From NCBI GenBank assembly GCA_951812955.1, contig OX638340.1:2912001-2976000 (forward strand): a stretch of DNA of 64,000 nucleotides. Reading direction: 5' to 3'. Both the position numbers and the translations under genes were made by a program. Below, in pieces: positions 16,614 to 60,491 of the stretch; within the stretch, counting starts at the first letter, position 1; each line of letters opens with the position of its first letter. The notes beneath the pieces are model-generated. The model ran no database searches and was not told the DNA's origin. It saw only the letters and a list, made by a program, of their open reading frames with translations. This DNA comes from an uncultured Gemmatimonadota bacterium. Its GTDB lineage: Bacteria; JAAXHH01.

Positions 16614-16844
16614 GGGAATCAAGCCGGATTCAGCGGGTCGTTGGATCAGGGCGAACGGCGGCGGCACAGCAAGCGAAAGATGCTATACGGGTGTTTAGAA
16701 ATCAAGGTATTTTCAAGGTGGACCGTGAATGGCGGAAAAGACGCTTGTTCTATGCCGTTACCGGAGTTAACGTGGTGTCGGCCGGTCCATCAGAATGCGG
16801 CGCGCCGGCCCGCCGCAGCCGATGTCGGAAACGGGACGATCATC

Positions 16845-45758: not shown

Positions 45759-47687
45759 CTAAACGGACACCGGCGCCTCGTGACCACCGTAGCCGAGTGC
45801 TTTCACGTCCCGATGCAGCCGATCGAGCACCCTGGTCCGTACCTCTTCGAACATCTCCCGGGTCAGGAAACTCACGCCGGGCAGGTCGCCCTTGGGCTGA
45901 CCCACGAAAACGTCGGACGGCAGATCGTATTCGGACTCCGTGATCCCCTGTTTCTGTTCGAGGGAAAACCCCAGGATGTGGGCCCGGTAGGTGGCGTCCA
46001 GCACCCGCTCGGCTGAGAAGGGCACGCCGAAAACGGACTCGATGCCTTCGCTGACCTGGTCCGGCGGGGCCATGGTGAACAAACATCCGCCATGCAGGTC
46101 CTTGTTGACCATCTTCCACCCTTCCTCGGTGATGTTGTGGACCCAGTAGTCCGCCGAATCGGGCTTGCAGTCCGGGTCCATCACGTATAGCAGGAAGGTG
46201 CGCATGGACATGTGGCCGCCGGCCACGGCGAAGGGGTAGCCCGGATTGGTCTGTCCCAGATAGGCGGAGAACTCGACCCCTTTGGCATGCATCGCGAAGC
46301 CCTCGCCACCGATCTCTTCGGCAATCACCCGGACACCCTTTCCGAATAGGGGTTCGCGGCCATAGGCGATATCCTCTTTAAGTCGGCGCGCACCTTCCGC
46401 GTCCCCGAAGGTTACGCCGCCCGCAACGGTGCCGTTACCACGGGAATTGTAGTCCATCAGGAAGGAGAGCACGACGTTGGCCGATATGGTATCGAACCCC
46501 AGGTCGTCGTCCAGCCGGGCGAGTTCCAGGTTGTCATGTGGATCCAGGATGCCGAGGTTGGCGCCGGACAGTTCCATGGGCTCGAACTCGAACCGGCCGA
46601 GGTAATCTCCATGGTTCCTCCGGGCCTTGCGCCAATCGGGATCCTTGCCGCCTTCCGGGATGTCGTAGAAGTCCTGGTGGCACGTTATCTGGCAGCCGTA
46701 GCAGCTCTTGTCGATGACGATGAAATCGTCCGATTCCCGCATGGTTTCCAGGTGTACCGGAACGGCCACGTTCTCGCCGGGCGGTTCGAAGTTCCGGTAG
46801 GGCAGCACGCCGAATCCATCGAGGATCTTGCTGTTCTTGCCCGTTCCGCCCAGTCCGTTCCGGTTGTGTGGATGGCGGTAACCCCGGCTCTGCTCGCCCC
46901 GCCCGATCTCGTTGTTGATGACCTTGAGCCGGTCGTCGCCCTTTCGGTAATAGTCCGTTTCCGACCTGGCCACAATGCCGATGATGTTCTTGGAACCGAG
47001 CACCGAGCCCATGCCGAGCCGGCCCGCGAACCGCCACTTGTCTTCCCCGCTCATCAACTGTTCCTGCGTCGATCCGACAATGGCCGCGTACCAGACCGTT
47101 TTCCAGTTTTCACCGGCCGGTCCGACGACGGCGAAATGGGCGTGGTATTCCTTGTCTTCATCGTTGTACTGCTCATCCAGATAGACCATCTTGTCCCGTA
47201 CCCGCGCGCCGACAAGATGTGCCGGGGCTTCGATCAGGGAAATATAGGGGCCGTCACTGGTCTGCTTTATAACCAGGAAGCTGGGACGATCCGCGCGGCC
47301 GGTGAGTATCAGGTCGCCGATGCCGGTATAGGAGAACTTGCGTCCGAAACTCCCGCTCATGGCCGACCAGACGGGCATGGGCTTTCCCGCCCGGGTACGT
47401 TTCAACGGGGAAAAACCCGAGAAATACGCCCGCAGCCCGGTCATGAACTGCGTGCCGGTGAAGCAGCCGGTGTTGATGACCAGCGGGGCATCCGGCGCGA
47501 AGGGATCGCTCACTTCATAGCCCGAGAGGATCTTGAACGACCGGCCGATGCCCCCGAGGAAGTCCATGTCGTCCTTGACCCGAAGGTCGTCGCTTCGGAC
47601 CTCGCGACCGGCGGACAGGTCGTATTCGATGCGGGTGTAGGTATAGTCGGTCACGTCTCCCGGCGTGCCGTTTCCAGGTTTCAGCAC
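45759..47687 (-). CDS. Aldehyde:ferredoxin oxidoreductase (AOR)-family tungsto/molybdopterin enzyme
   Basis: The N-terminal domain pattern aligns with AOR N-domain. Cys cluster ...SCYGCQITCHQ. 642 aa. Confidence 0.55.
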   Translation of the reverse strand: MLKPGNGTPGDVTDYTYTRIEYDLSAGREVRSDDLRVKDDMDFLGGIGRSFKILSGYEVSDPFAPDAPLVINTGCFTGTQFMTGLRAYFSGFSPLKRTRAGKPMPVWSAMSGSFGRKFSYTGIGDLILTGRADRPSFLVIKQTSDGPYISLIEAPAHLVGARVRDKMVYLDEQYNDEDKEYHAHFAVVGPAGENWKTVWYAAIVGSTQEQLMSGEDKWRFAGRLGMGSVLGSKNIIGIVARSETDYYRKGDDRLKVINNEIGRGEQSRGYRHPHNRNGLGGTGKNSKILDGFGVLPYRNFEPPGENVAVPVHLETMRESDDFIVIDKSCYGCQITCHQDFYDIPEGGKDPDWRKARRNHGDYLGRFEFEPMELSGANLGILDPHDNLELARLDDDLGFDTISANVVLSFLMDYNSRGNGTVAGGVTFGDAEGARRLKEDIAYGREPLFGKGVRVIAEEIGGEGFAMHAKGVEFSAYLGQTNPGYPFAVAGGHMSMRTFLLYVMDPDCKPDSADYWVHNITEEGWKMVNKDLHGGCLFTMAPPDQVSEGIESVFGVPFSAERVLDATYRAHILGFSLEQKQGITESEYDLPSDVFVGQPKGDLPGVSFLTREMFEEVRTRVLDRLHRDVKALGYGGHEAPVSV

Positions 47688-47987: not shown

Positions 47988-48911
47988 ATGACAGACCTTT
48001 CCCAGCAGACCGAACCCGCGATCGAGGTCCCCCGGATCGTGGACGATGAACAGATCCAGTTCTACGTGGATAACGGGTATCTCGTCGTGCCCGACTTGAT
48101 GACCGGCGACGAACTGCAGGAACTGAAGGACGACCTGGTCGACGTGGCCCGGGGAAAGTATCCCTGCAGGGGGCTTGACCCGCCGGCGCCCGATGACACC
48201 GACGACGACGTGTTGCAGCGCATCCTGTGTATCCACCAGCCCCACTTCGTCAGCCAGGTGATCGAGCAGTACGTGCGCCATCCGAAGATCTGCGGGGTGC
48301 TGAGCCAGATTACCGCGGCCCATCTGCCCTACTGGGACGGGAGCGTAAAGTGCATGCAGTCCATGTACTTCATCAAGCCGCCCCGGTTCCAGGGCCAGGC
48401 CTGGCACCAGGACGAGATCTTCATCCCCACGCGGGACCGGTCCCTGATCGGCGCGTGGATCGCCGTGGACGACGCCACGATCGAGAACGGTTGCCTGTAT
48501 GTCGTGCCCGGTTCACACCGGAACGGTTATCTCTATCCGCAGCGGCAGCACGAGAACCCCGACGAGTTCGACTTTGCGCCCGAGAGCTACGGATTCGACG
48601 AGTCCGTGGAAGTGCCGGTCGAAGTCCGCGCCGGAGCCCTGGTCTTCTTCAACGGCTATCTCCTGCATCGGTCCTACAAGAACCGCAGCGATCAGCCCCG
48701 CCGCGTGCTGGTGAACCACTACTGCAACGCGTGGAGCCTGCTGCCCTGGGGCATCGAAGAGGGCGAGCGTCCCGCCACGGCCGACCGTCGCACGATCGTT
48801 CCGGTTTCCGGCACCGACCCCTACGCCTGGAAGGGCTACGAACCCACGCAGGACACGATCTGGATACGCAACTGCAAGGCGGCGGATGATATGAAGGAGG
48901 AGGCGGAGTAG
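47988..48911 (+). CDS. PhyH-family Fe(II)/2-oxoglutarate dioxygenase
   Basis: FYVDNGYLVVPDL N-terminus, WHQDEIF HxD motif, GSHRNGY. Confidence 0.65.
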   Translation: MTDLSQQTEPAIEVPRIVDDEQIQFYVDNGYLVVPDLMTGDELQELKDDLVDVARGKYPCRGLDPPAPDDTDDDVLQRILCIHQPHFVSQVIEQYVRHPKICGVLSQITAAHLPYWDGSVKCMQSMYFIKPPRFQGQAWHQDEIFIPTRDRSLIGAWIAVDDATIENGCLYVVPGSHRNGYLYPQRQHENPDEFDFAPESYGFDESVEVPVEVRAGALVFFNGYLLHRSYKNRSDQPRRVLVNHYCNAWSLLPWGIEEGERPATADRRTIVPVSGTDPYAWKGYEPTQDTIWIRNCKAADDMKEEAE

Positions 48912-50864: not shown

Positions 50865-51647
50865 ATGCGGTTAGCAGGCAGGGCGGCCATCGTGACCGGC
50901 GCGGGGGACGGGATAGGGCGCGGGATCGCGCTGGCGCTTGCCCGGGAAGGCGCTTCGGTGGCGGTGTGCGACGTGAACGCCGACACGGTGACGGAGACCG
51001 GACGGCTGGTCGCCGAGACGGGACGGCCCGTCCTGGCGGAATCTCTGGACATCACCGACCACGGCGGGGTCAGGTCCTTCGTAGAGAGGGCGGCGTCCCG
51101 GATGGGGCGGATCGACATCCTGGTTAATAACGCCGCCATCATGCCCGTGTCCCCCGTCGAAGAGCAGGACGAAGCGGTGATGGCCCGCATCCTCTCCGTC
51201 AACCTGCTGGCCCCCGCCGTCTTCAGCAAGTATTGTATCCCGCACATGCGAGCCGCGGGCGGCGGATCGATCATTCACATGGCGAGTGTCACGGGCCACA
51301 ATGGGCATCCGGGGGTCGCGGTCTACGGGGCGACGAAGGGTGGACTGATCGCGCTGGCCCGGGGACAGGCCATGGAACTCGCCGTGGACAGGATCAGGGT
51401 GAATACAGTCTCTCCCGGCACGGTGGATTCCCCCATGTTGCACAACTTCGTGAATGAGAACGCCGAGGATCCGGAAGCCGCGCTCAGGGCCTTCGATCGG
51501 CTGCACCCCATCGGCCGGATTGCCACCATCGAGGAGGTCGCCAACGTCTTCGTGTTCCTGGCGAGCGACGAATCCAGCGATATCACGGCGGCGGATATCC
51601 GCTGCGACGGCGGCTACGCGGTCCAGGGCCGGCAGCCGACGGAATAA
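50865..51647 (+). CDS. SDR-family oxidoreductase
   Basis: AIVTGAGDGIGRGIA, NNAA and YGATKGG motifs. Confidence 0.75.
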   Translation: MRLAGRAAIVTGAGDGIGRGIALALAREGASVAVCDVNADTVTETGRLVAETGRPVLAESLDITDHGGVRSFVERAASRMGRIDILVNNAAIMPVSPVEEQDEAVMARILSVNLLAPAVFSKYCIPHMRAAGGGSIIHMASVTGHNGHPGVAVYGATKGGLIALARGQAMELAVDRIRVNTVSPGTVDSPMLHNFVNENAEDPEAALRAFDRLHPIGRIATIEEVANVFVFLASDESSDITAADIRCDGGYAVQGRQPTE

Positions 51648-51720
51648 CGGCAAGGAGAAGATCCGCTCATCTGCGACGGCGGCTACGCGGTCCAGGGCCG
51701 GCAGCCGACGGAATGACGGC
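51596..51720. repeat. Direct duplication of the last 50 bp of the SDR gene, including stop
   Basis: atccgctgcgacggcggctacgcggtccagggccggcagccgacggaatAacgg ... atccgctcatctgcgacggcggctacgcggtccagggccggcagccgacggaatGacggc. Confidence 0.8.
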
Positions 51721-51759
51721 TAGATTTCATCGGCCAGGAAACAGCTGCAAGGAGAACAT

Positions 51760-52743
51760 ATGTCAGTAGGAGTTTGCGCCTATTCATTCAATACGGGTCC
51801 CGACGCCTTCGAGCTCATGGACATGGCCGTCGAACACGGACTGGCCGGCGTGGAGTTCCCCCCGGACGACTGCTTGCCCGACCTGGCGCCGGCCACGCTG
51901 GAATCGGCCCGCGCCTGTGCGGAGGAACGCGGACTGTTCGTCGTGGCCGACGGCGGTCAGGTGGAGCGGGAGATGCTGGAGCGTCTCATCCCCGCGGCCT
52001 CCGGCCTCGGCGCGTCGACGTTGCGGGTGGTCATGAGCGGCGTACTCGGCGGGGACCGGCGTCCGCTGGCGGGACGGTGGAATGCCCATCTCGCGGATTG
52101 CAGGGATATTTTGCGCGAAGTCCTGCCGAAGGCGGAAGAGCATGGCGTGACCATCGCGGTGGAAAATCACTCCGACGCCACGTCCCACGACATGGCCTGG
52201 CTGTGCGAGGAATTGGACAGCCCGTACGTCGGCATTACGCTCGACGTGGGCAACGTGCTGGCGGTGTGTGAAGAACCCTTCGGGTACACGGAACGGCTGC
52301 TGCCCCATCTCCGTCATATCCACCTCAAGGACTATACGCTGCATCCTTCCAACGAGGGATTCCGCATAGCGCGATGCCCGCTGGGAGCAGGCGTGGTCGA
52401 CTATCCCGCCCTGCTGTCCCTGATCGACGGTTACCACGGCACGCGGGACCAGGGGGGCGGGATCGCGAAGACCATCGAACTGGGCGCCATATACGCCCGT
52501 CACGTGCGCATGCTCATGGCCGATTACTGGGCGGAGTATCCGGAACGGGACGTTAAAGAACTGTTGCCCTTTCTGCGGTTGTACTGGGCCCATGTTCGAC
52601 CGAAGGAAGAAGACTGGCGAACGCCCAGAGAGAAGGACGAACCGGTCGAGGTGCTGAAGGCATACGAGAATCGGCAATTCGAAGATAGCGTGTCCTATCT
52701 GAAGGAAATCGGGGCCGTCCAATCGAACTCCGTTACAACCTGA
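51760..52743 (+). CDS. Sugar phosphate isomerase/epimerase (xylose-isomerase-like TIM barrel)
   Basis: MSVGVCAYSF, AGVEF, VENH and HLKD motifs. Confidence 0.65.
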   Translation: MSVGVCAYSFNTGPDAFELMDMAVEHGLAGVEFPPDDCLPDLAPATLESARACAEERGLFVVADGGQVEREMLERLIPAASGLGASTLRVVMSGVLGGDRRPLAGRWNAHLADCRDILREVLPKAEEHGVTIAVENHSDATSHDMAWLCEELDSPYVGITLDVGNVLAVCEEPFGYTERLLPHLRHIHLKDYTLHPSNEGFRIARCPLGAGVVDYPALLSLIDGYHGTRDQGGGIAKTIELGAIYARHVRMLMADYWAEYPERDVKELLPFLRLYWAHVRPKEEDWRTPREKDEPVEVLKAYENRQFEDSVSYLKEIGAVQSNSVTT

Positions 52744-52760
52744 ACAAGGCGGGTCGGCAA

Positions 52761-53855
52761 ATGAGCTTTTCCGTTAATTCCGGTGACCACCTTGAAACGA
52801 AGGCGGTCGAAATGAAGATGGAACGCCTCGACCAGTCCGACATGCATGGTTCCATCGGTTCGATACCCGACCAGGTGGAAGCGGCCTGGGGGGATATGAC
52901 GGGGCGCGTTTTCCCCGACGCCTGCCGCGACGTGGACCACGTCGTGGTAGCCGGGATGGGTGGATCGGCCCTGGGCGCGCATCTGATAATGGACGTATTC
53001 CGCGACAGGCTGTCCGTACCGGTGACCGTGGTTTCAGATTACCAGGCGCCCGCGTGGATCGACGAACGGACACTCATCGTGTTGTCCAGTTATTCCGGGG
53101 GCACGGAGGAGGTGCTGAACATGGCGCAGCAGGGCGCGTCCCGTAACATTCCCATGATCGCGCTGACTACCGGAGGCGAACTGGCGGCGCTCGCCGAAGG
53201 AAATCGCTGGCCGGCCGTAGTGTTCGGCAGCGAACTGAATACGTGCGGGCAGCCTCGGATCGGCCTGGGTTACGCGGTGACGTACCTACTCGGGATTTTC
53301 CGGCAACTGGGCTTCGTAGACCTCGCCGCGACGGAGATTACCCGGGCCATCATGCTGCTACGTGAGACGAATCAGGATTACAGGGAACCGGGAGAGGAAA
53401 ACCCCGCCTTCGAGCTGGCGCGATCGACGCAGGGCAAAACGGTGATGATCATGGCCTCCGAGCATCTCACCGGCAATGCCCACATCATGGCCAACCAGTG
53501 GAACGAGAATGCCAAGAACATGGCGGCGTGGTTCGCCATACCCGAGCTCAACCACCATCTGCTCGAAGGGATGACCTACCCCCGGGAAAACCAAAACGGG
53601 CTCGTCGCCGTGCTGGTCCAGTCCGACCTCTACGATCCGCGCAACCGCCGCCGACACGAGATCACCCGCGCCTTGCTCGAGGAACAGGAGATCGCCTGCC
53701 CGGTCATCAAGCCACGGGGAGATACGGCCCTGGAACAGGCTTTCGACCTGCTCCTGCTCGGCACCTATGCCAGTTTCTACCAGGCGGTCTTAAACGCAAC
53801 CGATCCATCCCCCATTCCCTGGGTCGATCAGTTCAAGCGTCGCATGGCCGGCTAA
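52761..53855 (+). CDS. Bifunctional phosphoglucose/phosphomannose isomerase-family protein (SIS domain)
   Basis: VVVAGMGGSALGAHL SIS motif and overall 340-aa PGI/PMI archaeal-type layout. Confidence 0.6.
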   Translation: MSFSVNSGDHLETKAVEMKMERLDQSDMHGSIGSIPDQVEAAWGDMTGRVFPDACRDVDHVVVAGMGGSALGAHLIMDVFRDRLSVPVTVVSDYQAPAWIDERTLIVLSSYSGGTEEVLNMAQQGASRNIPMIALTTGGELAALAEGNRWPAVVFGSELNTCGQPRIGLGYAVTYLLGIFRQLGFVDLAATEITRAIMLLRETNQDYREPGEENPAFELARSTQGKTVMIMASEHLTGNAHIMANQWNENAKNMAAWFAIPELNHHLLEGMTYPRENQNGLVAVLVQSDLYDPRNRRRHEITRALLEEQEIACPVIKPRGDTALEQAFDLLLLGTYASFYQAVLNATDPSPIPWVDQFKRRMAG

Positions 53856-53914: not shown

Positions 53915-56900
53915 ATGAGTGAAATCGTTACATACCTTGGTGGAAAGACGCTGCTGATTACCGGCGCCACGGGATTCCTCGCGAAAGCGGTCGTGGAAAA
54001 GATCCTGCGGTGCGCGCCGGAGGTCGGCCGCGTATACCTTGTCGTCAGGCCCCGCCGCAAGAAGGACGGCACTACGCTGTCGGCGGCGGAGCGCGTGGAG
54101 GATGAAATACTCCAGTCCGCCGCTTTCGCCCGTTTGCGCGAGATGCACGGCGACCGATTCGCACCATTCATGGCGGAGAAGGTTCATGCTGTCGAGGGGG
54201 ATCTGACCCTGGACCACCTGGGATTGGAGCCGGAACTGTACCGGCTTCTTTCCGAAGAGGTCAATGTCGTAATGACCTGTGCCGCTTCCGTTACCTTCGA
54301 CGAAGAAATCGACGCCGCCCTGCAGCTGAACGCTCTGGGCGCCAGGCGGATGATGGAATTCGCCAGAACGTGCAACCGCGCCATACTCGTCCACGTATCC
54401 ACGGCCTATGTCAATGGCCAGCTCAAGGGGCGCATCCCGGAAGTTCCACCACGGCCGGACTGGTCCATGGCCCAGGAAATGGGGATCAGCGACGCGCCAT
54501 TCGACCTGGAAAAGGAAATCCGGGGTATTTTGGCGAGGGCCGAAGAAATCCATGTTGCGTCACGATCGGCTGTCCAGCAGAAACGGTTCCGTAGGTCAGC
54601 CCTTCAACAGAACGCGCGGCCCACGCAGCGCTGGCTTGACGCCCAGATGGAGACCTTCCGTAAACGCTGGCTGAAGGAACAGCTTATCGAAGAAGGGATG
54701 CGCCGGGGACAGCAGTGGGGCTGGCACGACAGCTACACCTTGACGAAGGCCATGGGCGAACAACTGATCGTCAAGCATCGGGGCGAACTGCCCACGGTCA
54801 TCATTCGTCCGTCCATCGTGGAAAGCAGTCTCGTCGAGCCGGAACCGGGATGGATAGAAGGGCTCAAGGTCGCCGACCCGCTGATCGACGCGGTGAGCAA
54901 GGGCCGCCTGCCGGATTTTCCCGGCGATAAGGACATGATCGTGGACATCATCCCGGTGGACATGGTGGTAAACTCCATGCTGGCCGCCATGGAGCACACG
55001 GTCCGGGAGGGCGGAATCAGCGTGTACCACGTGTCTACGGGCGACCGGAATCCAATCCGATTCCAACAGGCCTTCGAACTTTCCTACGAGTACTTCCTGC
55101 AGCATCCACGCCTGAACCGGAACAACGAACCCATACCCATCCGGCGCTGGACCTATCCGACCCTCGCCCAGTTCAGACGGCGGTACAACCTGCGCTACGT
55201 CTATCCACTGAACACCGCGCTCTGGGTGTTCAACCGCTTCAGCCGCATCACCTTCCTGAATAACTGGAAGCGCAGAATAACCGTGCTGAAATCGGCGATC
55301 TCCCGCATGCTCTACTACGCTTCGATCTACAGTCCCTACACGTCCCTGGAATGCACCTTCGAAACCGGTCGGACGGTCGGCCTGCACGAACGGCTCGGGC
55401 CCGATGACCGGCTGCTGTTCAACGGCGACGTATCCAGAATACAATGGAAGACCTACTTCCAGGATATTCATATTCCAGGGTTGAAGCGCCACGTGTTGAA
55501 GACCGACGAACCCAGGCCCACGGTTACAGAAGAGGAGGAGGTTGCGGAGCGGTCGGGGTTTACCCAGGCGGAGGATGACCCCCTGCCCCACCTCGACACG
55601 TTGACGGATATATTGGCCAAGAGCGCGGATATGTACGGAGACAAGACCGCGATGCAGATGGAGCGTGAGGGGGTATGGGTCCGGTATTCTTTCAAGGACG
55701 TGCACGACCTGGCCGGCCACATGGGCTGGCAATGGCGGTCCGGCGGGCTGCACCCGGGCGACCGCGTCCTGCTGTTTTCGGAAAACAAGCCCGAATGGGG
55801 GATCGCCTGTTTTGCGGGTCTGGTGGCCGGAGCGGTGATCGTGCCCGTAGACCGGCGGTCATCGGCGCAGGAAGTGTGGCGCATTGCCCGGTTCACCGGT
55901 TCGAAGGCTGTCCTGTGTTCGGAAAGCGGTTTCGAGATGCTGAAAGCCTCGGAAGCACCGGACCTGGAGGTCGCTTTCTGGAATATCGACAACTACGGCC
56001 TCCCTTTCGATGCCTCGCGGCCGTCGGCGTCGCCGGTCGCCTTGAACGAGGAACCGCCCGCCTGGGCGCCGGTTCAACCCGATGCGCCGGCCGCCATCAT
56101 GTTTACACGGGGCATGGCTGCGGAGTCGCACGGCGTGGTGCTGTCCCATCGGAATTTCGTATCGAACCTGCTGTCTCTTGCCGAGATTCTGCGCGCCTAC
56201 CGGACCGACCATTTCCTCTCTCTGCTGCCCATGAGCCAGGCCCTCGAGTTCACCGGGGGATTCCTCATGCCCTTCTACGCGGGAGCGACCATTACCTATA
56301 CCGCTTCGGTACGTCCTCGATCCCTGGTCGCCCTGATGGTTGAATCCGAAATCAACTGCCTGATCGCGGCGCCCCGGATTTTCGGACTGATGCACCGGCC
56401 GCTGCAGCGTGCGGCCCGTGAATCGGATACGGACGTGGTTTCCCGCATGCGACTGCTGGTCAGCGGCGGCGGTACGCTCGCGTCGGATCTCTACCACGCC
56501 TACCGCGATTTCGGCCTCACCATACACGAGGGATACGGGCTCACGGAAGCGGCGCCGGTCGTGGCCGTGAACCCCATGGACCGAAGCAAACCGTCCTCCG
56601 TCGGCATCGCCCTTCCGGAGGTCGACGTGCGTATCGCAAATCCCGATGAGGATGGGAAGGGAGAAATCGTCGTGCGCGGGTCGAACGTCATGCTGGGATA
56701 TTTCGAGAACCCGTCGGCGACGGAGCATCGCATCCGCGACGGCTGGCTTCACACGGGGGACATCGGTTACATCGACCGGGACGGCTACTTGTACATCGCC
56801 GACCGCATGGAGCGCAGCCGCGGATCGAAGGATGTACCGGATGGTCGTCCGGGGAACGGCAAGTCCCGCAGCGCCACCGCCTTCTTCGACGTGGACGGAA

Positions 56901-57535
56901 CCATCGTCGACGCCACGATCGTACACTACTACGCCTTTTACAGGACCTGGGGTTATTCCGTTCCGAAGCGTCTGCTTTGGACCCTGGGCTTTCTGCCGAA
57001 GGTCGTCTATTACATGGTGCTGGACAAAATCAGCAGAAGCCGTTTCAACCAGGTCTTCTACAGGCAATACCGGGGATTCGAGCGCGGCGAGTGCGTATCC
57101 CGCAGCGAACGCCTCTTCAACGAAGTCATGCGGCCGCGCATGTTCACCGGCGCCGTCGAACGCATTCGGGAGCATCAGCAAAGAGGCGAGCGCGTGGTCC
57201 TGGTCACCGGATCCCTCGATTTTATCGTGGAACCCCTCGCGGAGTACACCAAGGCCGACGATCTCATCGCCCTGTCCATGAAGGAGGAGAACGGCCGGCT
57301 GACGGGAGAGCCGGAAGGGCCGCCGATCGGCGACGAGGAGAAGGCCCGTATCGTCCGGGATTACGCCGAACGGCGCGGCATCGACCTGGACCGAAGTTAC
57401 GCCTATGCCGACAGCAGATCGGACCGGCCCATGCTGGACCTGGTGGGACACGCCGTCGTGGTGAACCCGGGCGGGAAACTCAGAAAGGCTGCGGAAGCCG
57501 GCGGCTGGGAAGTCGTTAGCTGGACCCACGTATGA
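53915..57535 (+). CDS. Tri-domain fusion: fatty acyl-CoA/ACP reductase (FAR, NAD_binding_4 + sterile domain) - degenerate AMP-binding (adenylation N-lobe) - HAD-IB phosphatase
   Basis: LLITGATGFLAKAVVEKIL and YTLTK (FAR). The second domain has YGLTE and GEIVVRGSNVMLGYF...TGDIGYIDRDGYLYIADR, but its P-loop reads FTRGMAAESHG instead of (S/T)SGTTGxPKG and it stops after ADR. The third domain has FFDVDGT and VTGS...D...ADS motifs. Confidence 0.65.
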   Translation: MSEIVTYLGGKTLLITGATGFLAKAVVEKILRCAPEVGRVYLVVRPRRKKDGTTLSAAERVEDEILQSAAFARLREMHGDRFAPFMAEKVHAVEGDLTLDHLGLEPELYRLLSEEVNVVMTCAASVTFDEEIDAALQLNALGARRMMEFARTCNRAILVHVSTAYVNGQLKGRIPEVPPRPDWSMAQEMGISDAPFDLEKEIRGILARAEEIHVASRSAVQQKRFRRSALQQNARPTQRWLDAQMETFRKRWLKEQLIEEGMRRGQQWGWHDSYTLTKAMGEQLIVKHRGELPTVIIRPSIVESSLVEPEPGWIEGLKVADPLIDAVSKGRLPDFPGDKDMIVDIIPVDMVVNSMLAAMEHTVREGGISVYHVSTGDRNPIRFQQAFELSYEYFLQHPRLNRNNEPIPIRRWTYPTLAQFRRRYNLRYVYPLNTALWVFNRFSRITFLNNWKRRITVLKSAISRMLYYASIYSPYTSLECTFETGRTVGLHERLGPDDRLLFNGDVSRIQWKTYFQDIHIPGLKRHVLKTDEPRPTVTEEEEVAERSGFTQAEDDPLPHLDTLTDILAKSADMYGDKTAMQMEREGVWVRYSFKDVHDLAGHMGWQWRSGGLHPGDRVLLFSENKPEWGIACFAGLVAGAVIVPVDRRSSAQEVWRIARFTGSKAVLCSESGFEMLKASEAPDLEVAFWNIDNYGLPFDASRPSASPVALNEEPPAWAPVQPDAPAAIMFTRGMAAESHGVVLSHRNFVSNLLSLAEILRAYRTDHFLSLLPMSQALEFTGGFLMPFYAGATITYTASVRPRSLVALMVESEINCLIAAPRIFGLMHRPLQRAARESDTDVVSRMRLLVSGGGTLASDLYHAYRDFGLTIHEGYGLTEAAPVVAVNPMDRSKPSSVGIALPEVDVRIANPDEDGKGEIVVRGSNVMLGYFENPSATEHRIRDGWLHTGDIGYIDRDGYLYIADRMERSRGSKDVPDGRPGNGKSRSATAFFDVDGTIVDATIVHYYAFYRTWGYSVPKRLLWTLGFLPKVVYYMVLDKISRSRFNQVFYRQYRGFERGECVSRSERLFNEVMRPRMFTGAVERIREHQQRGERVVLVTGSLDFIVEPLAEYTKADDLIALSMKEENGRLTGEPEGPPIGDEEKARIVRDYAERRGIDLDRSYAYADSRSDRPMLDLVGHAVVVNPGGKLRKAAEAGGWEVVSWTHV

Positions 57536-58767
57536 AAGCGGTTCAATACATCAAAAGCGTACCCAGGTACCTGTTCGTACGGACGATCGGCCATCGCAGC
57601 CCCGTTTTGGCGACCGGCGCCCTGTCGTGCATACGCATGGTAGACGTCGATCCCCCGGTGCTTCCGACTCCGGCATGGGTGCGCATCAGACCGCGCTTGA
57701 CCGGCATATGCGGATCAGACCTCTCCACCATCAAGGCCGGCGGAAGCCCTTACTTTTCCCCCCTGATATCCTCGCCTTTTGTCCTTGGACACGAAGTGGT
57801 GGGCGAGGTCCTGGAGACCGGTCCCGAATCAGGGGGCGTGTCCCGGGGGGACCGCGTGGCCATCGAACCCGGTCTGTGCTGCCCTGTTCGGGGCATCGAC
57901 CCGCCGTGCCCGTCGTGCCGGGAGGGAGATTTCGGCCTGTGTGAGATGGTTATGCACGGCGATATTTCCCCTGGCATTCAGACGGGGTATTGCAGGGACA
58001 CGGGCGGCGGATGGAGCACATCCCTGGTCGCACACCCCTTCCAGGTCCATCCGGTGCCCGAGCGGCTGACCGATGAGGAAGCGGTCCTGATAGAACCATT
58101 CAGCTGTTGCCTGCACGCCGTGATGAAATCCTTTCCCTCCGATGATGAGACGGTGCTCGTAATCGGGTGCGGTGCGATCGGGTTGCTTACTATCGCATCC
58201 ATACGGGCCCTGGGAGCCAAATGCCGGATTCTCGCCGCCGCCCGTTATGGCCATCAGGAGACCCTGGCGGCTGAACTGGGCGCCGACCGGGTCATCGGCC
58301 GGGGCGACGGCCTATACGAAAGCTTGAGCGAGGTGACCGGGGCGGAAATCCATCGTCCGGAGATCGGGCGGCCCGTATTCATCGGCGGCGCAAACCGGAC
58401 CTTCGATTGTGTCGGTTCCTCCCGCTCCATCGACGACGCCCTTCGACTGACCGGATCCGGTGGATGCGTCACCGTCGTAGGCATGCCGGGTATACCTTCC
58501 GGCATCGACTGGACAGCCGTCTGGTACAAGGAATTGAAAGTCCAGGGCGCGTATGCGTACGGGACGGAAAAATATGAAAACCGATCCGTGCGGACCTTCG
58601 ACCTTGCCATGCGGTTGCTGGAGGAGGGCAAGGTCGATCTGAAACCCCTGTTAACGGACCTTTATCCTCTGAAGGACTACCGGAAGGCGATCGGCCGGGC
58701 GCTGAAAGCCGGAAGCCAGGGCGCGGTCAAGGTGGCCTTCGACCTGCGAGACGAACCGGCGCGGTAG
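57532..58767 (+). CDS. Zinc-dependent medium-chain alcohol dehydrogenase
   Basis: GICGSDL, GHE, CPSCREGDFGLC structural-zinc motif, GCGAIG. ATGA-coupled to the upstream gene. Confidence 0.7.
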   Translation: MKAVQYIKSVPRYLFVRTIGHRSPVLATGALSCIRMVDVDPPVLPTPAWVRIRPRLTGICGSDLSTIKAGGSPYFSPLISSPFVLGHEVVGEVLETGPESGGVSRGDRVAIEPGLCCPVRGIDPPCPSCREGDFGLCEMVMHGDISPGIQTGYCRDTGGGWSTSLVAHPFQVHPVPERLTDEEAVLIEPFSCCLHAVMKSFPSDDETVLVIGCGAIGLLTIASIRALGAKCRILAAARYGHQETLAAELGADRVIGRGDGLYESLSEVTGAEIHRPEIGRPVFIGGANRTFDCVGSSRSIDDALRLTGSGGCVTVVGMPGIPSGIDWTAVWYKELKVQGAYAYGTEKYENRSVRTFDLAMRLLEEGKVDLKPLLTDLYPLKDYRKAIGRALKAGSQGAVKVAFDLRDEPAR

Positions 58768-58805: not shown

Positions 58806-60491
58806 GTGCCCTACCTGAAGATTCTGCGCGCGGAAGTTCCGCAAGTGCATGTCCTCTCAAAGGATGTCACTACCCTGGGCCGTTCCGGGGAAGTCGATAT
58901 GCCCATCAGAGGGGACCGCGGTGTCTCCAAACTCCACGCGCGGATCGAAAGCGAGGCTGCGGGCTACGTGATCACGGACCTGGGCAGCCGGAACGGTACG
59001 TATGTCAACGATCATCCGGTCGCCGGGGAACCCGCCCCGCTGCTTTCAGGCGATCATATCAGGGTCGGACAGACTGTCCTGGTATTTGAAGGGGGAGAAC
59101 CGGATGGGACGCATTCCGCGGGCACGGGAACCGCGGATGCGGAGGCCGTGGCGAGTAAGGACGATCCGCAGGCGCCGGCGTCGCTGTTCCGGGCGGATCA
59201 ACTGCCCTATACGCAGGCTGGCCGCCCGCCCGTCCGTCAGCGTGCAGGCGCGGACAACCACCTGCTGAAGCTGACGGATCTGAGCAAGGCCGTCATGACG
59301 GTGCGCAGCGAAGCGGAACTGGGAGATCTCGTTACCCGGCGCCTGCTCGAGTGGCTGGAGGCCGACTGCTGTGCGATCGTCCATCCCCTGGACACCGAGG
59401 ATGGTTACGACCTCGAGATAAGGTCGCTGGTATCCCGTACCGGAAGAGAAGCCGGCGGCATCTCAATCAGCACCACCGCGGTGAAACAGGCCCTGGAAAA
59501 CCGGATGGCCTCCATCACCACGAATGCCCTGGGGGATGAACGGTTCAGGGACCAGCACAGCGTCATCCTCCGCGGGCTGGCGTCCATTCTGTGCGTACCC
59601 CTGTGGCATGAAGACCGGGTATTCGGTCTGCTGTACCTCGATTCATCGGATCCCGCCGCGCAGTTTACCGTGGATCACCTCGGTCTCGTCAGCGCGGCCG
59701 CCAACCTGGCCGCCATCAAGACCGACAACCTGCGCCTGTTCGACGCGGCCGTCGCCAAGAGCGCGCTGGACAAGGAACTGGCCCTGGCCGGGGAGATTCA
59801 GGCGGGCCTGCTGCCCGGAGAGCGCTACGTGTTCCAACGTCTTGCCTGCGCGGGAAAGCTCCAGTCCTGCGCGGCGATCGGTGGCGACTACTACGATTTT
59901 ATTCCTATTGGCGAGAACGTCCTGACGGTGACGATCGCCGACGTTACCGGACACGGTCCCTCCAGCGCGATGCTCATGGTCGCCTGCAAGACCATGCTGA
60001 CCACCCTCATAGAGATCCGGGTTCCCCTGACGGAACGGGTGACGCGGTTGAATGAATACATGGTCCACCACGCTGCATCCAACCAGTTCATTACTTTCTT
60101 CCACGCCGAAATCGACCTGGAGCACCGGTCGCTGAACTATTGCAACGCCGGCCACAATCCCCCCATGCTCCTGCCGCCCGGCGACGCGCCGCCTGCGAGA
60201 CTGCATTCCGCAGGCCCGCCGTTGGGGATCGTTTCCTGTCCCTTTGACCTGGAGACCGTGGATTTTCCGCCAGGGTCCAGGCTGGTCATGTACACGGACG
60301 GAATCACCGAGGCCTCAGACCCGGAAGGGGTGCTTTACGAGGAAGACCGGCTGGAATCGCTGCTGACAAGGTGTCGCCGGCAGGACGCGGACGCGTTGAA
60401 AAACAGCATCCTGGCGGAACTTCTGGAATTCACCGCGGGACGGGAACAGGATGACGACGTTACCCTGGCCGTAGTGGAATACACCACCTAG
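58806..60491 (+). CDS. FHA - GAF - PP2C/SpoIIE-type serine phosphatase signalling protein
   Basis: N-terminal FHA (TLGRS...SKLHARIE...GSRNGTYVN). Central GAF-like region. C-terminal GGDYYDF...DVTGHG...YTDGITEA. Confidence 0.65.
   Translation: MPYLKILRAEVPQVHVLSKDVTTLGRSGEVDMPIRGDRGVSKLHARIESEAAGYVITDLGSRNGTYVNDHPVAGEPAPLLSGDHIRVGQTVLVFEGGEPDGTHSAGTGTADAEAVASKDDPQAPASLFRADQLPYTQAGRPPVRQRAGADNHLLKLTDLSKAVMTVRSEAELGDLVTRRLLEWLEADCCAIVHPLDTEDGYDLEIRSLVSRTGREAGGISISTTAVKQALENRMASITTNALGDERFRDQHSVILRGLASILCVPLWHEDRVFGLLYLDSSDPAAQFTVDHLGLVSAAANLAAIKTDNLRLFDAAVAKSALDKELALAGEIQAGLLPGERYVFQRLACAGKLQSCAAIGGDYYDFIPIGENVLTVTIADVTGHGPSSAMLMVACKTMLTTLIEIRVPLTERVTRLNEYMVHHAASNQFITFFHAEIDLEHRSLNYCNAGHNPPMLLPPGDAPPARLHSAGPPLGIVSCPFDLETVDFPPGSRLVMYTDGITEASDPEGVLYEEDRLESLLTRCRRQDADALKNSILAELLEFTAGREQDDDVTLAVVEYTT

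What the first reader, a model, noticed from the sequence alone, without database searches (positions are those of the whole stretch)
53915..58767. Fatty acyl reductase - truncated/degenerate adenylation domain - HAD-IB phosphatase tri-domain protein coupled to a Zn alcohol dehydrogenase
Standalone FARs and multidomain ether-lipid enzymes (ElbD-like: ligase/FAR/acyltransferase) are known. This N-to-C order with a HAD-IB domain is different. The adenylation-like module has a non-canonical P-loop (FTRGMAAESHG) and lacks the C-terminal lobe, so it may act as a binding or tunnel domain rather than a ligase. ATGA coupling to an MDR alcohol dehydrogenase points to a fatty aldehyde/alcohol/phospho-lipid conversion module. 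This could be ether-lipid, wax or lipid-phosphate processing.
Basis: partly seen in the sequence, partly recalled or inferred. Interest (0 to 1): 0.7.

Follow-up and report, generated by a model that had tools for sequence, protein, structure and literature searches.

The report
Truncated ElbD fused to ElbB phosphatase
This gene is a cut-down version of the bacterial ether-lipid enzyme ElbD: it kept the fatty-acyl reductase and a catalytically dead half of the ligase domain, lost the carrier and acyltransferase domains, and fused to the neighbouring ElbB-type phosphatase. Its relatives form a natural deletion series that shows which parts of this poorly understood pathway are kept in every form.

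Summary
ORF 53915-57535 (1206 aa) has three parts: a fatty-acyl reductase (FAR), the N-terminal lobe only of an ANL adenylation domain, and a HAD-IB phosphatase. It overlaps a Zn-MDR dehydrogenase gene (57532-58767) by ATGA.

It is not a new domain order. It is ElbD (FAR-ligase-ACP-acyltransferase, Myxococcus ether-lipid enzyme) broken at the A8 hinge and fused to an ElbB-type HAD. In other phyla that HAD is a separate gene directly downstream of full-length elbD, followed by the same Zn-ADH.

The tri-domain form is confined to one lineage of probably sponge- or coral-associated MAGs (15 intact and 2 frameshifted species-level genomes; one 50%-identity cluster). All three domains are under purifying selection (dN/dS 0.12-0.17).

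The ligase remnant has lost its key catalytic residues. These are the P-loop Thr→Met and the A4 His→Gln, and both changes recur in a second truncated lineage. It is therefore a retained scaffold or binding domain, not a ligase.

Elsewhere the same HAD-ZnADH pair sits behind full ElbD or behind FAR-HAD fusions with no ligase domain. The shared core is therefore FAR + HAD + ZnADH.

The Zn-ADH is of the polyol type, not a fatty-alcohol dehydrogenase. The function, probably ether or alkylglycerol lipid synthesis, is inferred and not shown. I rate this a new variant of a known kind, of moderate interest.

The parts
53915..57535 (+). Gene for the 1206-aa FAR / adenylation N-lobe / HAD-IB fusion protein (truncated ElbD fused to an ElbB-like HAD)
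   Evidence: ORF and translation. Pfam and NCBIfam domains. Orthologues at 75-98% identity in 17 species-level genomes, 15 with an intact ORF.
53915..55549 (+). FAR module: NAD_binding_4 at 53957-54979, Sterile at 55280-55501, Rossmann motif GATGFLAK at 53963-53986, YTLTK at 54734-54748
   Evidence: Of 113 positions that are at least 90% conserved in 77 full-length ElbD-like proteins, 108 are kept here. dN/dS is 0.124.
55526..55561 (+). FAR-to-ligase interdomain linker TEEEEVAERSGF. The shorter relatives P0027 and L033 retain it.
55592..56812 (+). Complete N-terminal (large) lobe of an ANL adenylation domain. There is no C lobe.
   Evidence: PF00501 covers 2-384 of 384 positions. The AF2 model has pLDDT 70-90 over this lobe. 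Foldseek matches ANL N-terminal-domain-only entries (3ivr, 8r2r, 3t5c, 3wv4) at TM 0.81-0.84. dN/dS is 0.167.
56102..56134 (+). Degenerate P-loop (A3 motif) FTRGMAAESHG
   Evidence: Family consensus is FT-x-GT-x-VDP[RK]G. Thr734 is present in 76 of 77 full-length proteins but is Met here and in L109.
56225..56251 (+). A4 motif region LPMSQALEF. The conserved His (76 of 77 full-length proteins) is Gln775 here.
   Evidence: L109 carries the same substitution.
56792..56815 (+). A8 hinge remnant YIADRMER. Homology to ElbD ends here.
   Evidence: Alignment with full-length relatives. T962, G963 and K966 are lost.
56816..56875 (+). Low-complexity linker that varies in length (roughly 5-80 aa across the clade)
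56870..57532 (+). HAD-IB phosphatase domain of ElbB type. Motifs: I FFDVDGT 56882-56902; II VLVTGS 57197-57214; III Lys in GDEEKAR 57329-57349; IV YADSRSD 57404-57424.
   Evidence: It is 47-50% identical to the HAD genes directly downstream of full-length elbD in L020, L024 and L025, and 36% identical to the elbB of a canonical cluster. dN/dS is 0.127.
57532..58767 (+). Zn-dependent MDR dehydrogenase of the polyol-dehydrogenase type. It overlaps the fusion gene by ATGA at 57532-57535.
   Evidence: HAD lies directly upstream in 47 of 54 homologous loci with enough flank. The ATGA overlap is conserved in 11 of 14 clade members and in Phycisphaerae locus L020.
58806..60491 (+). FHA-GAF-SpoIIE (PP2C) protein. 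It is a conserved downstream neighbour in this lineage and a possible regulator.
   Evidence: It also follows the ElbD-like gene in L110.
50865..53855 (+). SDR (50865-51647), xylose-isomerase-like TIM barrel (51760-52743) and bacterial PGI/SIS (52761-53855). This is conserved upstream synteny within this lineage only.
   Evidence: These genes are absent from the class I and class II loci of other phyla.

Best explanation
The gene is an evolutionary derivative of elbD, which encodes the multidomain FAR-ligase-ACP-acyltransferase enzyme of the bacterial elb ether-lipid pathway.

What happened to the gene:
- The ligase C lobe, the ACP and the acyltransferase were lost. The break is at the A8 hinge.
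- The remaining FAR + ligase N-lobe became joined in frame to an ElbB-type HAD-IB phosphatase. In other phyla that phosphatase is the next gene after elbD.
- The fusion gene stays translationally coupled to a polyol-type Zn-dependent dehydrogenase that accompanies this HAD across phyla.

Proposed working (inferred, not shown):
- The FAR domain reduces an already activated fatty acyl thioester (acyl-CoA or acyl-ACP supplied in trans) to fatty aldehyde or alcohol.
- The HAD domain dephosphorylates a phosphorylated glycerolipid intermediate, for example 1-alkyl- or 1-acyl-glycerol-3-phosphate.
- The Zn-ADH interconverts the secondary hydroxyl and keto group of the glycerol or DHAP backbone. It probably uses NADPH, because the acidic residue at the end of strand beta-2 is replaced by Ala and a conserved Arg/Lys follows.
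- The ligase N-lobe no longer adenylates. It persists as a folded scaffold or acyl-binding module between the two active domains.

The likely product class is ether (alkylglycerol-type) lipid.
For: Shown:

1. Homology to ElbD. The closest genuine relatives (P0024-P0026, L013, L022; 65-68% identity over residues 1-965) are about 1430-aa FAR-AMP-binding-PP-binding-Acyltransferase proteins. Hundreds more appear at about 40% identity. The ElbD architecture and the HAD nature of ElbB are stated in PMC9131029 and PMC13012113.

2. Gene order elsewhere. In Phycisphaerae locus L020 the order is PlsC, full elbD, HAD (TGATG overlap), ZnADH (ATGA overlap), DAGK. Its HAD and ZnADH are 50% and 51% identical to those of the window. 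In L024 and L025 a PF12710 HAD gene lies directly after elbD.

3. An unfused truncated form. In L109 (60% identity) the FAR-A(N-lobe) ORF stops 8 residues after the A8 Arg. The HAD gene starts two codons later in the same frame.

4. The HAD-ZnADH pair. HAD lies directly upstream of the ZnADH in 47 of 54 loci. Of the 34 such loci with at least 2.4 kb upstream, 17 carry a full ElbD or its 3' part, 14 carry FAR only, and 2 are of the window type.

5. Selection. dN/dS is 0.124 for FAR, 0.167 for the ligase N-lobe and 0.127 for HAD, each the median of 91 pairs. The catalytic motifs of FAR and HAD are intact. All 43 FAR positions that are invariant in the family are kept.

6. Loss of ligase catalysis.
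- There is no C lobe.
- P-loop changes are T734M, V736A, P738S and R/K739H.
- The A4 His775 is Gln.
- T734M and H775Q recur in L109. The closest relative of L109 (L110) and the closest relatives of the window clade both keep the consensus P-loop.
- Only 83 of 103 conserved N-lobe positions are kept, against 108 of 113 in FAR.
- The N-lobe/FAR distance ratio is 1.2-1.33, against 0.8-1.0 among full-length relatives.

7. The ligase domain can be lost outright. P0027 is nested next to the window clade and is FAR-HAD with only the first approximately 10 residues of the ligase domain left. L033 has FAR and HAD as separate genes. About 10 independent 50%-identity clusters are FAR-HAD fusions; Pfam confirmed five of them.

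8. The fold is a complete ANL N-terminal lobe.

9. The ZnADH is of polyol-dehydrogenase type. The catalytic ligands Cys60, His87, Glu88 and Glu188 are invariant.
Against: - No biochemical or genetic data exist for any member of this variant. The chemistry of the ElbD pathway is itself unresolved, and the role of ElbB in Myxococcus was confounded by polar effects (PMC9131029).
- The substrates proposed for HAD and ZnADH are inferred only from family type and lipid-gene neighbours (PlsC, PlsY, DAGK, Lar_N/ElbC-like in other phyla).
- The window lineage lacks those neighbours. It sits instead among sugar-type genes (SDR, TIM barrel, PGI, GFO), so a non-lipid polyol-phosphate role for HAD and ZnADH is not excluded.
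- Strong constraint on the N-lobe (dN/dS 0.17) and retention of the A5 and A7 motifs mean a residual ligand-binding or even catalytic role cannot be ruled out.
- I could not check whether the same genomes also carry AGPS, a full-length elbD or a separate C-lobe-ACP-AT protein.
- The AF2 model of the HAD part was poor (pLDDT below 50), so nothing can be said about how the domains pack together.
Confidence: 0.6

Rival explanations
1. The protein is a decaying relic. A deletion destroyed elbD, and the read-through fusion is a non-functional or barely functional pseudogene-like product.
For: The 3' end of elbD is unstable in this group. Related loci carry full-length, FAR-A, FAR-A(N-lobe), FAR-HAD, and separate FAR and HAD forms. 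Two of the 17 genomes have frameshifted copies (L015, L017). The linker varies greatly in length.
Against: dN/dS is 0.12-0.17 in all three domains across 91 pairs. The ORF is intact in 15 species-level genomes that have diverged to 75% identity. The catalytic motifs of FAR and HAD are invariant, and the ATGA coupling is conserved. The frameshifted copies are in long-read MAGs and show no other decay.
Confidence: 0.05
2. The N-lobe is still half of a working ligase. It pairs in trans with a separately encoded C-lobe(-ACP-acyltransferase) protein, so the system is a split ElbD and not a reduced one.
For: The N-lobe is strongly constrained and keeps the A5 YGLTE and A7 TGD motifs. Split elbD genes (FAR separate from A-ACP-AT) exist in Poribacteria and Acidobacteriota (preprint 10.64898/2026.06.23.733905; L027 and L028).
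Against: The known splits fall between FAR and the A domain, not inside the A domain. The P-loop Thr and the A4 His are lost in parallel in two truncated lineages. Sister forms dispense with the N-lobe entirely. No C-lobe-ACP-AT gene lies in the 64-kb window or in the 10-kb flanks of the related loci. The only candidate, P0023, proved to be a chimeric scaffold.
Confidence: 0.07
3. The unit makes free fatty alcohols or wax or storage-lipid precursors. FAR reduces acyl-CoA to aldehyde and the Zn-ADH reduces the aldehyde to alcohol. HAD would be an unrelated passenger or would act on fatty alcohol phosphates.
For: Two-step routes with an aldehyde-forming reductase plus an MDR aldehyde reductase are known. 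The NCBIfam aldehyde reductase model Ahr gives a weak hit (E 7e-15, 54.7 bits against a cutoff of 470).
Against: The ZnADH matches polyol and secondary-alcohol dehydrogenases far better. It is tied to HAD in 47 of 54 loci, and in other phyla to ElbD, PlsC, PlsY, DAGK and an ElbC-like Lar_N protein. Those are glycerolipid genes, not wax-synthase genes.
Confidence: 0.12
4. In this lineage HAD and ZnADH serve sugar, inositol or polyol-phosphate metabolism together with the flanking SDR, TIM-barrel, PGI and GFO genes. The FAR-N-lobe part would be only a fused passenger.
For: SDR-TIM-PGI upstream and GFO downstream are syntenic across the lineage. The ZnADH has sub-threshold hits to IolM and to idonate and galactitol-1-phosphate dehydrogenases.
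Against: The HAD-ZnADH pair is conserved with FAR or ElbD across several phyla that lack these sugar genes. FAR is under the strongest constraint of the three domains.
Confidence: 0.1

Closest known systems
ElbD (MXAN_1528) of the Myxococcus xanthus elbABCDE ether-lipid operon, and ElbD-like proteins of Latescibacterota, Poribacteria, Acidobacteriota and Planctomycetota
   Same: The N-terminal FAR domain is followed by an ANL ligase domain in the same order. Identity over residues 1-965 is 65-68% to full-length Latescibacterota-type homologues and about 40% to Poribacteria- and Acidobacteriota-type homologues. The gene is associated with an ElbB-type HAD.
   Different: The protein lacks the ligase C lobe, the ACP and the AGPAT/GNPAT-like acyltransferase. 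The P-loop Thr and the A4 His are replaced. The HAD is fused to the protein and is not a separate gene. No ElbC (Lar_N) or ElbE gene is nearby.
ElbB (HAD-like phosphohydrolase of the elb operon) / TIGR01490 HAD-IB hydrolases
   Same: The TIGR01490 score is above the cutoff and all four HAD motifs are present. Identity is 47-50% to the HAD genes directly downstream of elbD in other phyla and 36% to the elbB of a canonical elbB-C-D-E cluster.
   Different: Here it is the C-terminal domain of a 1206-aa protein. The substrate of any ElbB is unknown.
FAR-HAD two-domain proteins (about 750-800 aa) found next to the same ZnADH in arid-soil and other metagenomes (uncharacterised)
   Same: They have FAR at the N terminus and an ElbB-type HAD at the C terminus, followed by the same ZnADH family.
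   Different: They have no ligase remnant. Their FAR is only 37-39% identical to the window's and forms a separate deep clade, so they arose independently. They are usually followed by Lar_N and preceded by PlsY.
FARAT / MXAN_1675 (FAR-GNPAT fusions of the AGPS-dependent ether-lipid route)
   Same: FAR is fused to a second glycerolipid enzyme in one polypeptide, and the setting is ether-lipid synthesis.
   Different: The partner domain there is an acyltransferase, not a phosphatase. That route needs AGPS, which was not seen in this window.
Polyol-dehydrogenase subfamily of Zn-MDRs (L-threonine 3-dehydrogenase, sorbitol and xylitol dehydrogenase, ketose reductase)
   Same: The fold, the catalytic Zn ligands (Cys, His, Glu, Glu), a structural-Zn Cys cluster and the GxGxxG motif are shared.
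   Different: All equivalog models score far below cutoff (best is Tdh, 128 bits against 380). The protein has about 60 extra residues. The substrate is unknown.

Membership tests
ElbD-type multifunctional ether-lipid enzyme | N-terminal FAR (PF07993 + PF03015) domain | tested here: met
   All 43 family-invariant FAR positions are kept.
ElbD-type multifunctional ether-lipid enzyme | Complete ANL ligase domain (N lobe + C lobe) able to load the ACP | tested here: not met
   No PF13193 hit. Homology ends at the A8 hinge. The P-loop Thr and A4 His are replaced.
ElbD-type multifunctional ether-lipid enzyme | Acyl carrier domain (PF00550) | tested here: not met
   Absent. Present in the relatives.
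ElbD-type multifunctional ether-lipid enzyme | C-terminal AGPAT/GNPAT-like acyltransferase (PF01553) | tested here: not met
   Absent. No PlsC-like gene in the window.
ElbD-type multifunctional ether-lipid enzyme | Requirement for alkyl or alkenyl ether lipid formation | not testable with these tools
   This needs genetics and lipidomics.
ElbB-type HAD-IB phosphohydrolase (TIGR01490) | Model score above the curated cutoff, and HAD motifs I-IV | tested here: met
   145 bits against a cutoff of 98.3. Motifs DVDGT, TGS, K and DSRSD are present.
ElbB-type HAD-IB phosphohydrolase (TIGR01490) | Encoded next to elbD | tested here: met
   Fused here. It is the adjacent gene in L020, L024, L025, L027, L028 and L109.
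ANL adenylate-forming enzymes | N-terminal large-domain fold | tested here: met
   PF00501 full length. AF2 and Foldseek TM 0.81-0.84 to N-domain-only structures.
ANL adenylate-forming enzymes | P-loop (A3) consensus and A4 His | tested here: not met
   FTRGMAAESHG against the family pattern FTxGTxVDP[RK]G. His775 is Gln.
ANL adenylate-forming enzymes | C-terminal small domain carrying the A10 Lys | tested here: not met
   Only about 20 residues of linker lie between the A8 Arg and HAD motif I.
Fatty acyl-CoA/ACP reductases (FAR, PF07993/PF03015) | Rossmann TGxTGFLG/A motif, YxxxK motif and the Sterile C-terminal domain | tested here: met
L-threonine 3-dehydrogenase and other named polyol-dehydrogenase equivalogs | Equivalog model score above cutoff | tested here: not met
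   Tdh 128 against 380, idonate 5-dehydrogenase 117 against 469, IolM 108 against 450. The protein belongs to the subfamily only.

The most novel reading that the evidence does not exclude
The recurrent core FAR + ElbB-HAD + polyol-type ZnADH (plus a LarA-like ElbC in most phyla) may be a self-sufficient, AGPS-independent machine for making the ether bond or alkylglycerol. On this reading the ligase-ACP-acyltransferase part of ElbD is only an optional substrate-feeding accessory. In the window lineage the dead ligase N-lobe would be repurposed as an acyl-chain binding or channelling domain between the reductase and the phosphatase.
Probability: 0.2. Interest if true: 0.75.

Novelty: new variant of a known kind. 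Interest (0 to 1): 0.48.

Why it matters
How ElbD-type systems form ether lipids aerobically without AGPS has been unresolved since 2014. The roles of its FAR and acyltransferase domains, and of ElbB, ElbC and ElbE, have not been shown.

The loci gathered here form a natural deletion series. It runs from full ElbD, through FAR-A, FAR-A(N-lobe) with a separate HAD, the FAR-A(N-lobe)-HAD fusion and FAR-HAD, to FAR and HAD as separate genes. Except for the FAR-A form (which has no adjacent HAD or ZnADH) and the contig-truncated L109, each form lies next to the same HAD-ZnADH pair.

The series suggests which parts are kept in every form (FAR, HAD, ZnADH) and which can be lost (ligase, ACP, acyltransferase). 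It gives small, expressible two-gene units for direct biochemical tests.

It also offers a clean example of an enzyme domain kept under selection after loss of catalysis, with the same two catalytic residues lost in two lineages.

Finally, it points to a lineage of probably sponge- or coral-associated MAGs as candidate sources of sponge alkylglycerol lipids.

Tried and rejected
1. P0023/L001 looked like the ancestral state: a full-length ElbD at the same locus, 79% identical and carrying the same degenerate P-loop. I rejected this.
   - Its first roughly 850 codons are 91-98% identical at nucleotide level to the Latescibacterota locus L006.
   - From the A5 motif onward, it and its 3' flank match an Acidobacteriota elb cluster (L027, L028) at 86-89%.
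   - It is therefore a chimeric scaffold or, less likely, an inter-phylum recombinant.

2. Promoter and terminator scans of 50.5-62.5 kb gave counts at background level and no usable operon boundary.

3. AF2 on residues 545-1206 gave a confident N-lobe but an unusable HAD (pLDDT below 50), so domain packing could not be assessed.

4. I looked in the window for other elb genes (Lar_N/ElbC, ElbE, DAGK, CDP-alcohol phosphatidyltransferase of the elb type, PlsC, KASIII) and for AGPS. None was found near the locus.

5. Literature searches for the fusion or for a HAD-ZnADH partner of ElbD found no description.

6. I could not retrieve the M. xanthus ElbD sequence, so I could not compare its P-loop with the family consensus.

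The only hint is weak: none of the top 120 ElbD-like clusters shares a contig length with the fusion-bearing chromosomes.

Full report
**Observation.** The window holds a 1206-aa ORF at 53915-57535 (+) and a 411-aa ORF at 57532-58767 (+). They overlap by ATGA.

Pfam finds four domains in the first protein:
- NAD_binding_4, residues 15-355, E 9.5e-67
- Sterile, residues 456-529
- AMP-binding, residues 568-930, covering 2-384 of the 384 profile positions, E 3.2e-62
- HAD PF12710, residues 989-1174, E 1e-39

TIGR01490 (HAD-IB) scores 145 bits against a cutoff of 98.3. All ligase models of NCBIfam stop aligning near residue 967, and no AMP-binding C-lobe model matches. The second protein is a Zn-MDR dehydrogenase (ADH_N + ADH_zinc_N).

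**What it derives from.** A search of 5.8 billion protein clusters gave 22 clusters (76-98% identity, full coverage) with the same three-domain make-up. After these came hundreds of roughly 1430-1480-aa proteins with FAR, AMP-binding (+C lobe), PP-binding and Acyltransferase. They match only residues 1-965 of the query.

That longer architecture is ElbD, the multidomain enzyme of the Myxococcus xanthus elbABCDE ether-lipid operon. ElbB of that operon is a HAD-like phosphohydrolase (PMC9131029, PMC13012113). A 2026 preprint on sponge symbionts reports elbD plus elbB as the conserved core of elb-like clusters (10.64898/2026.06.23.733905).

Alignment shows that homology to full-length ElbD-like proteins ends exactly at the A8 hinge motif (…DGYLYIADR|MER…). 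A low-complexity linker of very variable length (roughly 5-80 aa within the clade) follows, and then HAD motif I (FFDVDGT).

**Where the HAD and the dehydrogenase come from.** In a Phycisphaerae MAG (L020) the gene order is as follows:
- a PlsC-type acyltransferase
- a full elbD (1415 aa)
- a separate HAD gene, with stop and start overlapping as TGATG; 50% identical to the window's HAD domain
- a Zn-ADH, with an ATGA overlap; 51% identical to the window's
- a DAG-kinase-like gene

In L024 and L025 a PF12710 HAD gene also lies directly after a full elbD. The window's HAD domain is 47-50% identical to these HADs. It is 36% identical to the elbB of a canonical KASIII/elbB/Lar_N/elbD/elbE cluster from sponge Acidobacteriota.

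I then scanned metagenomes with an alignment of the Zn-ADH. This gave 349 relatives, of which 80 loci were kept. Results:
- HAD lies directly upstream on the same strand in 47 of the 54 loci with at least 700 nt of upstream sequence.
- Of the 34 such loci with at least 2.4 kb upstream, 17 carry a full ElbD or its 3' part, 14 carry only a FAR, 2 are of the window type and 1 has none of these.
- In at least 17 loci, FAR and HAD form one roughly 750-780-aa ORF.
- A Lar_N protein of about 529 aa follows the Zn-ADH in 22 loci. It is like the gene at the elbC position of the canonical cluster.
- PlsY precedes the FAR-HAD genes of arid-soil loci.

HAD + ZnADH is therefore a conserved partner pair of ElbD/FAR in a variant elb cluster.

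**Distribution of the tri-domain form.** One genome per species (GTDB) gave 17 genomes with the gene, 15 with an intact ORF. NCBI labels them Gemmatimonadota or Candidatus Latescibacterota MAGs. Several isolate names suggest sponge or coral hosts; that is my reading of the names. NCBI names the protein 'HAD-IB family hydrolase'.

The neighbourhood is syntenic throughout the clade: sulfatase, SDR, TIM barrel, PGI, fusion gene, ZnADH, FHA-GAF-PP2C, GFO on the minus strand.

A full HMMER pass of the HAD domain over 1.84 billion cluster representatives gave the following among the best 150 hits:
- a single roughly 1200-aa cluster, which is this clade
- about ten clusters of 750-800 aa with the HAD at the C terminus; Pfam confirmed FAR-HAD in the five I checked
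- mostly stand-alone HADs otherwise

**A deletion series in related lineages.**
- Full-length proteins: L013, L022 and P0024-26, at 65-68% identity.
- L110/P0028: FAR plus a complete ligase, without ACP or acyltransferase, followed directly by FHA-GAF-PP2C and with no adjacent HAD or ZnADH.
- L109/P0029 (60% identity, same SDR-TIM-PGI synteny): the ORF ends 8 residues after the A8 Arg. The HAD gene starts two codons later in the same frame. The contig ends inside the HAD gene.
- P0027: groups with the window clade on a FAR neighbour-joining tree. It is FAR-HAD and keeps only the first approximately 10 residues of the ligase domain.
- L033 (syntenic TIM-PGI … GFO): the FAR ORF ends after the FAR-ligase linker, the HAD is separate, and the ZnADH follows.
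- The arid-soil FAR-HAD proteins form a separate deep clade and so arose independently.

**A false lead.** P0023/L001 is a full-length ElbD at the syntenic locus with the same odd P-loop, and it first looked like the ancestor.
- Its first roughly 850 codons are 91-98% identical at nucleotide level to the Latescibacterota locus L006.
- From the A5 motif onward, the gene and 5 kb of flank match the Acidobacteriota cluster L027/L028 at 86-89%.
- Its C-terminal part is only about 32% identical to any other ElbD.

It is a chimeric scaffold, or less likely an inter-phylum recombinant. I did not use it.

**Is the gene alive, and is the ligase remnant a ligase?**

Nei-Gojobori dN/dS over 91 pairs within the clade is 0.124 for FAR, 0.167 for the ligase N-lobe and 0.127 for HAD. 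Two genomes (long-read MAGs) have one or two frameshifts but no other decay.

I compared the protein with 77 full-length ElbD-like proteins:
- All 43 invariant FAR positions are kept, as are 108 of the 113 FAR positions that are at least 90% conserved.
- In the N-lobe, 83 of 103 such positions are kept.
- The losses cluster in three places:
  - the P-loop (family pattern S-I-I-F-T-x-G-T-x-V-D-P-[RK]-G; here T734M, V736A, P738S and R/K739H)
  - the A4 His775, which is Gln here
  - the hinge (T962, G963, K966)

T734M and H775Q are also present in L109. The nearest relative of L109 (L110) and the nearest relatives of the window clade keep the consensus P-loop, so the changes look convergent.

Relative to FAR, the N-lobe evolves 1.2-1.33 times as fast in the truncated lineage. 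Among full-length relatives the ratio is 0.8-1.0.

AF2 predicts the lobe confidently (pLDDT 70-90). Foldseek matches N-terminal-domain-only ANL structures at TM 0.81-0.84.

From established knowledge of ANL enzymes, three elements are needed for catalysis: the P-loop, which binds the ATP phosphates; the A4 His; and the A10 Lys of the C lobe.

**The dehydrogenase.** Its best PDB and NCBIfam matches are L-threonine 3-dehydrogenase, xylitol and sorbitol dehydrogenases, ketose reductase, idonate 5-dehydrogenase and IolM. All fall far below the equivalog cutoffs. Cys60, His87, Glu88 and Glu188, a Cys cluster and GCGAIG are invariant. The acidic residue usual at the end of strand beta-2 in NAD-dependent members is Ala, followed by a conserved Arg/Lys. 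By analogy with ketose reductase, this suggests NADP(H) use; that is inference. The enzyme is a secondary-alcohol or ketone type and not an obvious fatty-alcohol dehydrogenase.

**Most likely working.**

Shown:
- the gene's ancestry
- its domain content
- selection on all three domains
- loss of the ligase residues
- the cross-phylum FAR/ElbD-HAD-ZnADH linkage

Inferred:
- FAR reduces acyl-CoA or acyl-ACP supplied in trans. It must be able to do this, because FAR-HAD and FAR-only forms exist in the same gene context.
- HAD removes the phosphate from a glycerolipid intermediate.
- The ZnADH acts at the C2 hydroxyl or keto group of the glycerol or DHAP backbone.
- The product class is ether or alkylglycerol lipid.

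The window lineage lacks the lipid-gene neighbours seen in other phyla and sits among sugar-type genes. A polyol-phosphate role for HAD and ZnADH therefore remains a rival reading.

**Novelty and verdict.** The protein is not a member of the ElbD family in the full sense, because three of the four defining domains are incomplete or absent. It is a derived variant of the ElbD/ElbB system. I found no description of it, of the FAR-HAD fusions or of the ZnADH partner in the searchable literature. Interest is moderate. The mechanism is unproven, but the deletion series narrows the part of an unresolved pathway that is kept in every form, and it supplies compact constructs for testing.

Noticed in passing
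L001 (ENA ERZ23495410, PANK22-1 scaffold_938), gene 10001-14344: P0023 looks like a full-length ElbD at the syntenic locus but is a chimera. The 5' part (up to the A5 YGLTE motif, about nt 12630) matches Latescibacterota L006 at 91.6% over 7.8 kb. The 3' part and 5 kb of flank match an Acidobacteriota elb cluster (L027, L028) at 86-89%.
   Followed up: yes
L004 about 13600-13690; also L005 and L011, at the fusion-gene stop / ZnADH start: The gene junction is tandemly duplicated (a unit of about 32 nt in L004 and L005, longer and more divergent in L011; 2-3 copies, e.g. CACTGGACCCGCGCATGAAATGGGAAGTCGTT). This displaces the ZnADH start and removes the ATGA overlap in three clade members.
   Followed up: no
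L015 10001-13680 and L017 10001-13575: The fusion ORF is interrupted by two frameshifts in L015 and one in L017. Both are long-read MAG assemblies. Identity stays at 75-85% throughout, so sequencing error is as likely as pseudogenisation.
   Followed up: partly
window 10911-16667 (-): A 1918-aa protein has two UvrA_inter and two UvrA_DNA-bind domains plus ABC ATPase hits. It looks like a tandem double UvrA in one polypeptide.
   Followed up: no
window 28797-35240 (-): A 2147-aa ORF in a lower-GC stretch (53-60%) was not analysed.
   Followed up: no
window 97-1548 (+) and 3941-5284 (+): Two proteins carry a CDP-alcohol phosphatidyltransferase domain behind an N-terminal extension; in the first the extension is a nucleotidyltransferase. 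They flank a Polysacc_synt flippase. The arrangement resembles IPCT/DIPPS-like head-group synthesis.
   Followed up: no
window 45759-47687 (-) and 47988-48911 (+): An aldehyde:ferredoxin oxidoreductase (AFOR) and a PhyH dioxygenase lie 6-8 kb upstream of the FAR gene. The same pair is upstream in L002. A link to aldehyde handling is possible but was not tested.
   Followed up: no
L061 +1242..+2831 relative to the ZnADH, and 21 other loci; absent from the window: A Lar_N (LarA-like) protein of about 529 aa directly follows the ZnADH in 22 class I and class II loci of other phyla. It matches the gene at the elbC position of the canonical cluster (L027 6180-7778). The window lineage has FHA-GAF-PP2C at that position.
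   Followed up: partly
L085 -3001..-2258 relative to the ZnADH, and 9 other arid-soil loci: PlsY (acyl-phosphate:glycerol-3-phosphate acyltransferase) lies directly upstream of the independent FAR-HAD fusion genes.
   Followed up: partly
P0382 (929 aa): One ORF runs from the end of an acyltransferase domain through HAD-IB into a full AMP-binding domain. HAD is therefore also found fused downstream of an ElbD-type acyltransferase and upstream of another ligase.
   Followed up: no
window 50865-53855; L033, L109, L110, L111: SDR, TIM-barrel and PGI genes stay directly upstream of the ElbD-derived gene in lineages down to 60% identity, whatever the 3' architecture (L033 keeps only TIM-PGI; L110's contig begins inside the block). 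This could be a functional link or only lineage synteny.
   Followed up: partly
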